Shown piece after piece: positions 7,901-44,915 of a stretch of 64,000 bases of DNA. The notes below the pieces were generated by a model. It searched no databases, was not told the DNA's origin, and worked only from the letters and a program-made list of their open reading frames with translations. The position numbers and the translations under genes are program-made. The stretch covers positions 2,294,001-2,358,000 of the forward strand of contig JBHGNT010000001.1 of NCBI GenBank assembly GCA_043228905.1. The letters are read 5' to 3'. The DNA comes from Azolla caroliniana. Taxonomy: Eukaryota > Plantae > Polypodiophyta. Numbering within the stretch: the stretch's first letter is position 1; every line of letters begins with the position of its first letter.

Positions 7901-9837
7901 GGAAGGCCAGCAGGGCCTGTATAAAGGCCATTATAGACTTCTGTAGAAAGCTGTGTCAAGAGACCTTGTGAGAGCATTCAGGGGCTGATTCATTCAAGTT
8001 CTACTTCTCCAAGATATTTATTTATTTTGTACATTGTATCCTCTGCATTACTTGTACACATGGTTCAGATAACTTTGTACTTTGATCACAGCCTAGTTAC
8101 ATCATTTAGGTGCAAATTTTTTTGCGTTCTTTTACCTTTGGCCTCACAGAACATTTTTGCCAGTAACATATCATCATCCTCATCATCTCATACACTTACT
8201 GGATACAGTCCAGACCCGTCATTCCGTTGATGCATGAGCTTGTCGATGTATGTTCAGCTGGATACAACACCATTCACTCATCCATGAGCTAGTTGGCATA
8301 TACTGAACTGAGGTTATTAACGGGCTATGCCTTTTTTATGCATAAACACCATTTCCTGCACACAAACAAATAGCATCTGACCTCCATACATCAACCATCA
8401 TCGACCTTCCCATATACTGATGTGAATGCATCCCGGTCCCAAAATTGATTGTGTAATGATGTGTGCAGACAGGTCTACCACCCATTATGAGCTCAAAAAG
8501 GAACTAGGTTAGACCACATAGAGGAAAGCTAGATGAGAACTGAAAACACTTAAACTTTCAAACCTAGCCACCAAGAACCTAGTTTATAGCACACATGGTC
8601 TAGAGTTTTTCTTTAGCTTATATCTAATATAACACTAGTACCATGTGTCAGGACCAGGTTGTAACAAATTTGTTGCTAACAAAACGTTATTTATGGGATT
8701 AAAGATTTGCTGAATGTCCATGCTCTTTGGAAACAGGTATAGGAGTATTTTGAATGAGATGTTGGGTGAATTGGAAAGAAATCAGAGGAATCCCATTTGG
8801 TATACGATATGGCTCCACCATGTAGGTGACCTATTTGATGCAATGGGACTTGTTCTGGTGGCACATTTTCGACGATTGCTGCCTCTCCTCTTCTTTTGGG
8901 CGCATACTGCAGACGATTCAGTCGTATTACTGGTCAGATTTGTGTATCTTAATGGGTTGTAATTGTTCATTGTAAATGTATTAGATTTTATATTTTTAAT
9001 GTATTAAGGTGCATGTTTTCATGGGTTAGATTTGTGCATTTAATGGGATGATGGTGCAGGTGCTCAAAGTCTTCAAGGATGTCATAAGAAACACGTGGCC
9101 ACGAATGCCCTACCATGTTAAAAGGTTATCATCATTAAAAGTATCTATTTTTTCTTATGCGTTTTAGCAAGTTCTGGATGGTTTTTATTTTTTGTCATGA
9201 GAAATGTGTGCATGAATGCCTATCATATTGGAAGGTTTGTCATACATCATTTTCTATGCTTTACCATGAAGGGTTAGTTGAGTTCTTGTTTTTTCCATTG
9301 AAATATGTGATCATGAATGCACTATGATTGAAAGGTTTATATCATACTATATAATATTTCCATTTTAGTGATGCTGCTATAAAGGATTTTTTATGGTTTC
9401 TTCTGTGTTACTTTTGATTTTGCTTGCTGTAGCAGATTCTGGCAGGAACTCGCTCAGTTGTACACAGAAGCGTCTGAAAGCAAGTCGTGCTCAGCTCTTC
9501 GGTCATCAATTATTGAAATATGCGTACTACTAAAAATGTATTTGTTCTTAATCATCTGAATTCATTACCGACAAATTTGTTTTTTGCTTCTTTTACTAAA
9601 CTGATTATCCATGTCGACAACACATTCTTCTTCATCCAAGGCGTTTAATATTTATTTAATGAGCATAATGCTACCAGCTTTTAAGGTAGTGAATTATTTC
9701 ATAATGTTCGATTTTGCAGGTGTGGAGGTTCAGCGTTTGAGTCTGAGTACCAGAAAGAAGACAATAGAGATACCTCTCTAGCTTGTTTAAAACTGGCTTT
9801 GGAATCTCACTTAAACATAATTCCAATCAACACATAG
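1996..9837 (+). CDS. TTI2: TTI2 (TELO2-interacting protein 2)/At2g39910-like ARM/HEAT-repeat protein, ~752 aa
   Basis: Exons 1996-2220, 3790-3860, 4252-4372, 4502-4794, 5025-5286, 5382-5909, 6413-6499, 6925-7115, 8737-8932, 9060-9124, 9436-9537, 9720-9837. All GT-AG with consistent phases, 2259 nt. The C-terminal half matches remembered plant At2g39910-family motifs (HPHL..LLIPCALMALDH, NEMLGELER, GLVLVAHFRRLLPLLFFW, TWPR). Confidence 0.8.
7290..8680. mobile_element. Possible degenerate LTR-element remnant(s) in TTI2 intron 8
   Basis: On the minus strand ...GGCTACA-GAT-TGGTATCAC (7296-7314) resembles an LTR end plus tRNA-iMet PBS. A TATA-like GGCCTGTATAAAGGCC lies at 7914-7929. No coding remnant recognised; boundaries uncertain. 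Confidence 0.3.
9089..9349 (+). repeat. Three degenerate copies (~105-bp spacing) of the TTI2 exon10/intron10 junction
   Basis: GAAACACGTGGCCACGAATGCCCTACCATGTTAAAAG|GTTATCATCA (real junction) vs GAAATGTGTGCATGAATGCCTATCATATTGGAAGGTTTGTCATA (~9201) vs GAAATATGTGATCATGAATGCACTATGATTGAAAGGTTTATATCATA (~9300). Confidence 0.75.
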
Positions 9838-10406
9838 TGAACAAGGAACTTTTTTATGTAATTCTTCTTAGCATCAATACTATAATATGTAAAATACCCC
9901 ATGGGCAATTTCTGAGGAATCAACTCTAGTGGCAACTCTTTCTTGTATATGCGCAGCTCCCTTTTTAGTTTAGGGCTTACACTATATTGTAAAAAGGATT
10001 TTGTACATCTATAACCATTGGATTATTTTTAAGAAGTATATTTGTATTACAACTTTTCACTCATCACGACCAAGTGATTGACCCATTTAATTTTAAAAAT
10101 CAAGAAAAAGGTTGAACTATTTTATTGGTACTCTTTCCCATGGGTTGTGTTGGTGGACATACAGATTGATAACTATTATTTTGATTGCTATGTTTATGAA
10201 CCACAAACTCGGGTGATATGTGTATAACAAAGCATAGTTTTGGTATTGCAATTTGCTATTAATATTCAGGTGTAGTATAACCTCATTTGAGAATTAATCA
10301 CATTGGGCAATGCCATAAATGCACTAGTTAATGCCTATTTTAGACGTTAAGGGTGTTAAGGGTTGATATGCTCAAGGAAGCACTAGATCGAGCATCAATG
10401 GTTTGA

Positions 10407-43000: not shown

Positions 43001-44915
43001 ATAGGAGTTTAAAAGGCAATCAATTTTCCTGTATCCAAAATATGCCATTTATGTCATTCATAGGTGACTCCTATGTAAATGAGAACCACTTTTACAGTCA
43101 TTCTCCTGTAGATGATTCTTAAAGTGGACGATTACACACCCCACAGAGGGCTCTTCAAGTGATAAATACTCCTAATATGCCTAAAATATGTGATTAAATT
43201 ATTCATGGTGTATGTGATTAGACATGTTATTAATCAACTACAGAACTCCAAAATATGTTATTACGTGCTTTGAAGAGAGGAGAGGTCTAATTGAAAATAA
43301 CTTTGAATGTACCCAAAATATTTGTGACTAAGGGAATAGAAAAGTTCAACATATAAGTTGTAATTAAGGGACTAGAAAAGCCCAAAATATATGGTGATTA
43401 AAGGACTAGAAAAGCCCCAATACTTGGCCATTCAGTAATCTGCTGACTAAGAATAACGTTACCCATAAGCGTTGAATGCAATAAGAGAAGGGGAGTTGTC
43501 ACAAAAATCGACTTACCTGAAAGGAGTACCGAAGTTGGACAATGAAAGGATGGACAATCTTGGTGAGAATGTCTCTCTCTGCTATCATGTAGTCCCCTTG
43601 GTTTTTCTCCATAATAACCTCCTTCTTCATCACTTTCATGGCATAAATTGCATGAGTCTGACGATGTTGTACCTGGAAAACCTTCCCAAAAGCCCCCTGC
43701 CCAACAATGCGGAGAAGCTCAAAATCCTGTGGCCCAACCCTCCCTCCATCTTCAGATCCTCCATCATTGGATCTTCCATCGCTTGATTCACTCTCTTCTG
43801 CATCATCAGAGAAGCCATATCCATACCCTTTGTCCAAAACATTCCCCTTCTTTTTACTGATGCTCAATGATGATCCGATGAAAGAATTTGATTGGGGGTC
43901 AAGTGCTATCGATGGGCCAACGAATGAGTGTGATCGTGTGCAAATCACAGCAGGCTCAACACTGGCATCGAGAAGCTCCTCTGTGACCAGCCATGGACAT
44001 GTAGTTTACATGACAACCACAATCTTTAATATACACAAGGTATGTATTTATGTATACCCAAACTACGTCATTGGATTATGGGAAAATCCCTCTTAAAATA
44101 CCAAGCATATGTGATTTAGTATATGAATACCAACAAACCCTCTTTTAACATATCAGAACTATGTGATTAAGTGACAATCATATTCTATGTACACAAAATA
44201 TGCTTTTAAGCGAGAATCACACTTATACCCAAAAAGTATGATTATGTAATAATCAAGCTCTTTATATACCCAAAGAATGTGTTAACGCTATGAGCAATAC
44301 ATGTGTTTAAGCAATATGCACAGTTTAACATACCCAAACTATGTGTTTAAGAACCAACTGCAGCACTCTTTATCATACTCAAACTATGTGATTAAGGGGC
44401 AACCTCTCTTTAAGATACCCAGAGCATGTGATTAAGCAGCAATCATACTCTCTTCAAAGATATCCAATATATGTGATTAAGGAACAATCTCTCTTTGACA
44501 TACCCAGAAAAAGCGAGTAAGCGATCATCACACTCCAAGCATTCCCAACATATGTAATTAAGCAACAATCACTCTTTAACATCTCCAGAATATGCAATTA
44601 AGGATGCTACACCCTTTCGCATACCCAAAAGAGGTGATTAAAAGCGTGATTAAGTAGCAATGACATTCTTGAATTACAGAGACAATGTGATGAAGAAAGT
44701 TAACAAAACTCTACTTTTAACATACCAAAATGATGTGTCGGAGGAAGGGCACCGAATACTTCAGAGAAGTCGAATTCTTGTGGATCTATATCAATATCGG
44801 TATTAACCTCTTCTTCTTCTTTATGAGCCCCATTGATGAAGATGGGAATGAGAGGGGTCTTCAGCCTATTTGGTCTTACAACCGAAGGAGGCAAAGGCAT
44901 GTGAGGGTTTACCAT
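40005..44915 (-). CDS. S6K: Ribosomal protein S6 kinase (AtPK1/AtPK2-like AGC kinase), ~474 aa
   Basis: Exons 44915-44726, 43980-43517, 42740-42658, 42561-42441, 40902-40729, 40642-40535, 40289-40005; 1425 nt in frame. Motifs [69 protein letters not shown], and hydrophobic motif FKGYTYVAP. Confidence 0.95.
42840..43420 (-). repeat. Dispersed, more degraded copies of the intron-1 repeat unit in S6K intron 2
   Basis: About 9 plus-strand matches to TACCCAAAATATGTGATTAA, e.g. near 42860-42880, 42922, 43032, 43180, 43247, 43310 and 43380. Confidence 0.65.
44050..44740 (-). repeat. ~40-bp degenerate tandem array (~16-17 units) filling S6K intron 1, in register with the real 5' splice junction
   Basis: Plus-strand unit TACCCAAA.TATGTGATTAAGCAACAATCACTCTTTAACA. 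The terminal unit is the junction itself (CTACTTTTAACATAC|CAAAATGATGTG, 44711-44737). Confidence 0.9.

What the first reader, a model, noticed from the sequence alone, without database searches (positions are those of the whole stretch)
9089..44740. Recurrent system: introns filled with tandem copies of their own 5' splice junction
Seen: three unrelated genes each have an intron whose degenerate repeat unit contains that intron's own donor. S6K intron 1 has ~16 units of TTTGG|GTATGTTAAAGAG vs the real TTTTG|GTATGTTAAAAG. PHD intron 2 has units ending (G/A)TAAGTTACATCAC vs the real CAT|GTAAGTTACATCAC. TTI2 intron 10 has 2 extra copies of the exon end plus AAG|GTT. The units are unrelated between genes, so this is not one transposon or satellite family. 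Inference: either a mutational process that repeatedly duplicates DNA anchored at 5' splice sites and so lengthens introns, or retained arrays of decoy donors/U1-binding sites affecting splicing, premature polyadenylation or intron retention. I do not know of a description of this as a general plant phenomenon.
Basis: partly seen in the sequence, partly recalled or inferred. Interest (0 to 1): 0.85.

Follow-up and report, generated by a model that had tools for sequence, protein, structure and literature searches.

The report
Fern introns stutter, sometimes copying donors
In this plant (likely a fern), five of 35 splice-donor sites are copied into their own introns, but the introns are just as full of local repeats that start elsewhere, and the one gene checked in RNA splices at the first site, so the copies are likely harmless by-products of general local DNA duplication, as known from human, lancelet and chicken genes.

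Summary
The repeats are real. S6K intron 1 holds 15-16 degenerate units that match its own donor (-12..+11). TTI2 intron 10 holds two copies of the exon end plus donor. PHD intron 2 holds about 15 units, which share only the first 14 intron bases with the donor and no exon sequence. I found two more cases (TTI2 intron 9, S6K intron 6).

Donor windows have a downstream copy in 4 of 35 introns; interior intron windows seed copies at 8.5-10.7% (3.0-3.7 expected; P 0.35-0.52). Ten of 19 introns of 400 nt or more carry a clear private repeat family, only two involving the donor. Acceptors score 0 of 35 (P 0.02-0.04). Spliced contigs of two runs use only the first S6K donor, and GT is not preferentially kept.

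Best reading: general local tandem duplication, tolerated at donors and likely purged at acceptors. Known kind: human F7/CBS minisatellites, amphioxus mirages, chicken exon stuttering; this scan noted it before in eight other genomes. Not found described for plants in my searches. A donor bias of up to about twofold is not excluded; no genome was held.

The parts
43981..44725 (-). S6K intron 1; donor at 44725, the weakest of the 35 donors on a matrix trained in this window
   Evidence: spliced joint 43980-44726 in runs X8 and X5; score 1.8, lowest of 35
44020..44642 (-). array of 15-16 degenerate 40-45-nt units that include the exon-1 end and donor (-12..+11); 12 of 16 keep GT
   Evidence: unit-sized indels in related runs at 44125-44166 and 44329-44384
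42844..43417 (-). S6K intron 2 repeats: members of the intron-1 family on the far side of exon 2 (two at 12.7 and 16.8 bits, two weaker) and a 34-36-nt array; unrelated to intron 2's own donor
   Evidence: a 34-nt unit absent and 42981-43194 doubled in run X9
40431..40557 (-). S6K intron 6: single copy (40488-40431) of the exon end and donor (40557-40506); new case
   Evidence: donor shown by joint 40289-40535; exon end conserved in homologues
13646..15295 (+). PHD-finger gene intron 2; donor at 13646
13820..15000 (+). array of about 15 degenerate 60-80-nt units; each carries a version of intron bases +1..+14 but no exon sequence; 4 of 14 scanned positions keep GT
9080..9360 (+). TTI2 exon 10 end, donor (9125) and intron start (9080-9186) with two tandem copies (9193-9294, 9300-9360), period about 105 nt; both keep GT (9235, 9335)
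   Evidence: exon end matches homologue P0002
8932..9050 (+). TTI2 intron 9 (8933-9059): intron start (8932-8959) copied at 9024-9050, with a more decayed unit between; new case
12442..13281 (+). PHD intron 1: private repeat family not including the donor (control)
   Evidence: 25 of 48 interior windows flagged; profile does not match own donor
16689..17910 (+). PHD intron 7: three-copy local duplication not including the donor (control)
26656..27605 (-). LRR receptor kinase intron: private repeat family not including the donor (control)
51767..53281 (+). NAC gene intron 1: several local duplications not including the donor (control)
   Evidence: 37 of 97 windows flagged
57714..60023 (-). Na/H-exchanger gene introns 1 (59598-60023) and 2 (57714-58595): private repeat families not spanning the donor (control)

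Best explanation
The introns of this likely fern carry many private, direct, degenerate repeats of about 35-130 bases, and some of them include the splice donor; they are likely made by ordinary local tandem duplication that is blind to splice sites, and a duplication across a donor likely survives because the first copy stays the one that is spliced. Steps: (1) shown: repeats are direct, local and single-locus; (2) shown: unit-sized indels and a 214-nt duplication differ among close relatives, inside and outside donor-derived arrays; (3) inferred from rice and Arabidopsis work: 50-125-nt tandem duplications arise by patch repair of nearby nicks, and an existing pair would seed further unequal exchange or slippage; (4) shown for S6K only: the upstream donor is used although two copies score slightly higher; (5) inferred: a duplication across an acceptor would put an AG upstream of the true one and is likely removed by selection, which would explain 4 donors against 0 acceptors; (6) inferred: copies then decay without constraint.
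For: Direction-matched test, first members of families only: donors 4 of 35, interior 109 of 1021 (10.7%) or 76 of 896 (8.5%) without the five donor-copy introns; P(>=4)=0.52 and 0.35. 270 of 1200 interior 30-mers have a copy in their own intron against 51-53 of 1234 in shuffled introns and 58 of 1200 for inverted copies. Intergenic DNA also has them: 61 of 465. The S6K intron-1 family recurs in intron 2, away from that intron's donor. Turnover in relatives at 44125-44166, 44329-44384, 43369-43402 and 42981-43194. Six of six S6K joints use the annotated donors in two runs. Read-through meets a stop within 24-41 nt of four of the five donors, so use of a copy would be unproductive. Acceptors 0 of 35 against 3.1-3.7 expected, P 0.02-0.04. 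Tandem duplications are the commonest insertions in rice, about 70% of events below 125 bp (PMC7971508, passages). F7 shows upstream-first donor choice (PMC1557585, abstract and introduction).
Against: Only 35 introns. With the strictest background (per-intron mean 6.1%, five introns left out) 2.15 donors are expected; P(>=4)=0.17, and counting TTI2 intron 10 as a fifth gives P=0.06, so a roughly twofold donor bias is not excluded. The acceptor deficit is fragile: 4 vs 0 is Fisher p=0.057, 6 vs 3 with wider windows p=0.24, and pure exon-end vs exon-start windows give 2 vs 2; under the collapsed background P(0) is 0.02-0.08. Acceptor-side copies exist in amphioxus and chicken. Interior windows overlap and are not independent. 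PHD intron 2's unit begins at about +1 with no exon part, which a random breakpoint explains only as coincidence or later exon change. Contigs drop rare isoforms, so minor use of copies is not excluded; low-depth (2.9) contigs cover part of S6K intron 1 in both spliced runs. The S6K family on both sides of exon 2 needs a non-tandem step.
Confidence: 0.76

Rival explanations
1. Duplication is seeded preferentially at 5' splice sites (for example by nicks or R-loops near the donor during co-transcriptional splicing), on top of a general background.
For: Five of 35 donors have copies; the two fullest arrays (S6K 1, PHD 2) both include the donor; the PHD unit starts at about +1; repeat families start nearer donors than they end before acceptors (median 75 vs 118.5 nt, 14 introns, one-sided Wilcoxon p=0.045); P=0.06 for five donors on the strictest background.
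Confidence: 0.14
2. The copies are kept as decoy donors or U1-binding sites that tune splicing, intron retention or premature polyadenylation.
For: 12 of 16 S6K copies keep GT and two score above the true donor (2.3 vs 1.8); the first TTI2 intron-10 copy scores 5.8 vs 5.3; low-depth intron-1 contigs in both spliced runs.
Against: In S6K the +1, +2 and +5 columns (0.7, 0.8, 0.5) are no better kept than the upstream non-splice motif (0.7-0.9). PHD copies keep GT in 4 of 14 and score -0.3 or lower against 7.8. Strong cryptic donors per kb: S6K 1 none, PHD 2 2.4, other long introns 0-3.5. Units are gained and lost among relatives.
Confidence: 0.05
3. The units are remnants of transposons or a dispersed satellite inserted beside donors and resemble them by chance.
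For: PHD intron 2 shares only about 14 intronic bases with its donor. No whole genome was held for a family search.
Against: Profiles hit only their own gene in the 64-kb window, apart from one chance-level hit. DNA contigs of two relatives show no pile-up over the S6K array (summed depth 11-18) while a true dispersed repeat in intron 4 gives more than 50,000. In TTI2 10 and S6K 6 the copied part is conserved coding sequence.
Confidence: 0.02

Closest known systems
Human F7 intron 7 37-bp VNTR, with the 6-16, CBS intron 13, LAMIN B2 and PDGF intron 4 minisatellites it cites (Borensztajn et al. 2006, PMC1557585; abstract and introduction read)
   Same: First unit spans the exon-intron boundary, the donor is repeated down the intron, the most upstream site is the one used, copy number varies.
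   Different: F7 pseudo-sites are identical in sequence; here units are old and degenerate, often without GT, and in PHD intron 2 lack exon sequence.
Sequence stuttering and exon stuttering on chicken dot chromosomes (Hron et al. 2026, PMC12954441; abstract, section 7 and discussion read)
   Same: Each intron has its own imperfect repeats of tens to hundreds of bases; a minority include an exon edge with its splice site (190 of 5,572 dot-chromosome introns there); intergenic DNA is affected too.
   Different: There GC-rich, young (under 20% from consensus in the example shown), kilobase-scale and confined to single introns; here about 35% GC, more decayed, under 1.3 kb, and one family crosses an exon. 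The paper reports birds and gerbils only.
Amphioxus 'mirages' (Adh3, BflGb6, BflGb9; PMC3087553, passages read)
   Same: Tandem copies of exon-intron boundaries in several unrelated genes, units 10-160 bp, no interference with normal splicing, length instability.
   Different: BflGb6 units are 81-100% identical and acceptor-side copies occur; here none of 35 acceptor junction windows had a copy.
Patch-repair tandem duplications in plants (rice, PMC7971508, passages read; Schiml et al. 2016 seen only as a reference there)
   Same: Size range (mostly below 125 bp), direct orientation, independence from transposons.
   Different: Described as single events; repeated rounds filling an intron, and the relation to splice sites, were not in the passages I saw.

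Membership tests
Donor-spanning intronic minisatellite (F7/CBS type, amphioxus mirage) | Repeat unit spans the exon-intron boundary | tested here: met
   Met for S6K 1 (exonic part ranks 1 of 35), TTI2 10 and S6K 6. Not met for PHD 2 (exonic part ranks 3 of 35) and only one exon base for TTI2 9.
Donor-spanning intronic minisatellite (F7/CBS type, amphioxus mirage) | Direct tandem copies in the following intron | tested here: met
   inverted copies at background. S6K 6 is a single copy whose spacer is not clearly duplicated.
Donor-spanning intronic minisatellite (F7/CBS type, amphioxus mirage) | Most upstream donor is the one spliced | tested here: met
   S6K introns 1 and 6 in contigs of X8 and X5.
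Donor-spanning intronic minisatellite (F7/CBS type, amphioxus mirage) | Copy number varies between alleles | tested here: inconclusive
   Unit-sized indels among related runs with different organism labels; no comparison within one population.
VNTR in the strict sense (F7) | Near-identical units | tested here: not met
   TRF 66% matches for S6K, nothing for PHD and TTI2; column agreement 0.3-0.9.
Sequence stuttering (Hron 2026) | Intron-private imperfect repeats of tens to hundreds of bases, sometimes with an exon edge | tested here: met
Sequence stuttering (Hron 2026) | Repeat blocks confined to one intron | tested here: not met
   S6K intron-1 family has members in intron 2 (16.8 and 12.7 bits).
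Sequence stuttering (Hron 2026) | GC-rich setting | tested here: not met
   GC 0.35-0.36 over the arrays.
Sequence stuttering (Hron 2026) | Extensive intron-length variation among individuals | tested here: inconclusive
   Only 34-214-nt differences, in one gene and four runs.
Transposon or dispersed satellite | Unlinked copies elsewhere in the genome | tested here: not met
   No pile-up over the S6K array in two DNA runs; S6K 1 and PHD 2 profiles stay within their gene in the window. Whole genome not held.

The most novel reading that the evidence does not exclude
This fern lengthens its introns genome-wide by an AT-rich form of sequence stuttering not described in plants, and the process is seeded about twice as often at 5' splice sites as elsewhere, through nicks or R-loops at the donor during co-transcriptional splicing, while 3' splice sites are spared.
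Probability: 0.13. Interest if true: 0.75.

Novelty: new member of a known kind. Interest (0 to 1): 0.3.

Why it matters
As it stands: a plant example of donor-spanning repeats, and a hint that about half of this fern's long introns are built largely from private local duplications and not from transposons, which bears on how intron length evolves in plants. The donor-tolerant, acceptor-intolerant pattern, if it holds genome-wide, would give a natural read-out of the rule by which plant spliceosomes choose between duplicated sites. Only a real donor bias would link splicing to mutation, and this window does not show one.

Tried and rejected
Whole-genome count: no genome held, so all statistics come from 35 introns in six genes; further possible introns (5' UTRs, the last NAC intron) were left out for lack of support. 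RNA on TTI2 and PHD: not obtained. Run search: no RNA holder listed on record; X8 is an RNA guess and X5 a DNA guess, and I treat both as transcript assemblies only because their contigs skip all six introns. Rows dropped: low-complexity windows (trinucleotide score >=0.9 or >=1.0) before interior counts; PHD 13 and the Na/H-exchanger intron 1 passed the -30/+30 donor test through simple-sequence matches and are not counted as donor copies. The X12 joint 43814-44652 (DNA, 21-letter side) and the joints 40201-40729 and 40893-43517 (from a paralogue-like contig with 34 differences in 165 nt) were not taken as splicing. The idea that the receptor-kinase intron array derives from its donor failed (no profile hit). 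Raw interior rate as the background (5.2 donors expected, acceptors P=0.0006) was rejected as inflated by counting copies; the collapse mis-merged S6K intron 1, so one search replaces both. Literature searches with no plant description in the listings; PMC6786969 passages mention intron length only. Subscription papers and supplements were not seen and may hold a plant description.
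Full report
Setting. The window is plant DNA; the best named homologues of two genes are from the ferns Adiantum and Ceratopteris, so a fern is likely; the species was not established. No whole genome is held. I built models for six genes by coordinates: TTI2 (11 introns, 752 aa, 54% identical to P0002, which carries Pfam Tti2), a PHD-finger gene (13 introns, 803 aa, 52% to P0003), S6 kinase (6 introns), an LRR receptor kinase (1), a NAC gene (2) and a Na/H exchanger (2): 35 introns, 20,770 nt. 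The TTI2, PHD, S6K and receptor-kinase frames are open across all junctions; the NAC and exchanger junctions are less fully checked. All six S6K introns are skipped exactly by contigs of two runs, X8 and X5.

Observation. S6K intron 1: the quoted donor is exact at 44730 on the minus strand. A profile from interior units alone finds 15 units between 44642 and 44020 and then the donor itself, -12..+11, at 10.9 bits against 1.4 for the best other donor; exonic and distal intronic parts each rank 1 of 35. TTI2 intron 10: a unit of about 105 nt from 45 nt inside the exon is present three times (9080-9186, 9193-9294, 9300-9360). PHD intron 2: 15-16 units of 60-80 nt; the donor matches that part of the unit (11.1 against 1.8 for the next donor), but only through intron bases; the exonic part ranks 3 of 35. 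Two further cases turned up: TTI2 intron 9 and S6K intron 6. Direction is exon to intron for TTI2 10 and S6K 6, whose exon ends are conserved in homologues, and likely for S6K 1, whose exon end aligns with PSPHH-like stretches of fern homologues. Against other genes' introns, 4 of 35 donor windows (-15/+15) pass p<=0.01, far above the nominal rate (binomial p=0.0004).

Of 1,200 interior 30-mers, 270 have a copy in their own intron, 180 of 1,014 without the five donor-copy introns. The false-positive rate is about 4% (53 and 51 of 1,234 in shuffled introns) and inverted copies are at that level (58 of 1,200), so the repeats are real and direct. Intergenic pieces give 61 of 465, introns of similar length 132 of 472. 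Thirteen of 19 introns of 400 nt or more have four or more flagged windows; ten show a clear family in alignments, the other three (TTI2 1, TTI2 8, S6K 4) are doubtful, and of the ten only S6K 1 and PHD 2 involve the donor. Because arrays count their own copies, I used a direction-matched test in which a window counts only if it has a downstream copy and no upstream one: interior 109 of 1,021 (10.7%), or 76 of 896 (8.5%) without the five introns; donors 4 of 35; expected 3.7 and 3.0; P(>=4)=0.52 and 0.35. The window was chosen for its three examples; of the other 32 donors two have copies (P 0.59-0.87). The least favourable background for my reading, the per-intron mean of 6.1%, gives 2.15 expected, P(>=4)=0.17 and P(>=5)=0.06 if TTI2 10 is counted. 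Donor anchoring is therefore not shown; a bias of up to about twofold remains possible.

What differs is the 3' end. No acceptor window has an upstream copy (0 of 35; 3.1-3.7 expected; P 0.02-0.04). In introns of 400 nt or more, 7 of 123 windows in the last 100 nt are repeats against 23 of 120 in the first 100 (overlapping windows). This is only a hint: Fisher p=0.057 for 4 vs 0, 0.24 for 6 vs 3 with wider windows, 2 vs 2 for pure exon windows, and 7 vs 3 of 21 introns at intron level (p=0.14).

Not a transposon; still turning over. The S6K 1 and PHD 2 profiles hit only their own gene in the window, apart from one hit at E=0.36. DNA contigs of two relatives give summed depth 11-18 over the S6K array and more than 50,000 over a dispersed repeat in intron 4. 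Relatives differ by unit-sized pieces: 42 nt replaced by 5 at 44125-44166 in all four runs, 56 nt at 44329-44384 and 34 nt at 43369-43402 in X9, and X9 doubles 42981-43194, the middle of intron 2. Two of these four events lie outside any array of the intron's own donor. The intron-1 family also has members in intron 2, across a 464-nt exon, which needs a local non-tandem copy.

Decoys. On a matrix trained on the other 30 donors, the S6K intron-1 donor is the weakest of 35 (1.8); 12 of 16 copies keep GT and two score 2.3, yet the only joint seen in two runs is from the first site. The +1, +2 and +5 columns are no better kept than the motif upstream. PHD copies keep GT in 4 of 14 scanned positions (two of the 14 lie beyond the array and are weak) and score -0.3 or lower against 7.8. 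Read-through hits a stop at intron base 24, 31, 41 and 28 in S6K 1, PHD 2, TTI2 10 and TTI2 9; in S6K 6 the copy's GT would add 71 or 73 nt, a frameshift. One candidate is untested: the first TTI2 10 copy scores 5.8 against 5.3. Contigs drop rare isoforms, and depth-2.9 contigs cover part of S6K intron 1 in both spliced runs.

Mechanism. Most likely (0.76) splice-blind local tandem duplication. In rice such events are the commonest insertions and dominate below 125 bp, attributed to patch repair of adjacent nicks (PMC7971508, passages); that this acts here is inferred from size and orientation. A duplication across a donor leaves the exon intact and the copy in the intron, harmless if the upstream site wins, as shown for F7 and seen here for S6K. 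A duplication across an acceptor would offer an earlier AG and is likely removed; that step rests on general knowledge of 3' splice-site scanning and on the weak deficit above.

Known kinds. F7 and four other human minisatellites begin across a donor. Amphioxus mirages are the same at both boundaries. Chicken sequence stuttering matches the whole picture, private intron repeats with occasional exon edges, but is GC-rich, young and confined to single introns, so this locus works like it without meeting its definition. The scan's notes list eight donor-repeat findings in other genomes and none on this topic among the eight notes shown for this genome. Eight searches gave no plant description in their listings; the library lacks most subscription papers and I read no supplements.

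Verdict. Real feature, known kind, and the proposed donor-anchored system is not supported by the control. What remains worth a genome-wide count is the density of intron-private repeats in this plant and the possible donor/acceptor asymmetry. Interest 0.3.

Noticed in passing
window 16689 (+): PHD intron 7 is modelled as GC-AG; the frame and homologue alignment fit, no RNA check.
   Followed up: partly
window about 41244-41301: Short high-copy dispersed repeat in S6K intron 4: summed contig depth above 50,000 in both DNA runs, with many loose ends. A similar stretch is visible by eye near 34360-34430.
   Followed up: no
window 44032-44224: Depth-2.9 contigs in both spliced runs cover the 3' part of S6K intron 1 and share variants with the DNA run X9; retained intron, pre-mRNA, DNA or a second haplotype.
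   Followed up: no
window 40729-40893: A second, deeper contig with 34 differences in 165 nt lies on S6K exon 5 in the spliced runs; likely a paralogue.
   Followed up: no
window 45095-45160: 21-nt tandem repeat in the S6K 5' leader has one more unit in X8 and X5.
   Followed up: no
window 41720: X9 and X12 carry 171 other letters at this place of S6K intron 4.
   Followed up: no
window 59598-60023: Na/H-exchanger intron 1 is built from units that include telomere-like 7-mers.
   Followed up: partly
window 26656-27605 (-): One unit of the receptor-kinase intron repeat reads as a good 5' splice-site consensus although the family is unrelated to that intron's donor.
   Followed up: partly
window 13619-13645: The end of PHD exon 2 has a short internal duplication that adds about three residues against P0003, so the exon end may have changed after the intron-2 array formed.
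   Followed up: partly
window 1-1020, 36450-38960, 45800-49800: By eye only: the end of an LTR retroelement, an apparently intronless PPR-like gene, and a LINE-like element; labels recalled, no family search run.
   Followed up: no
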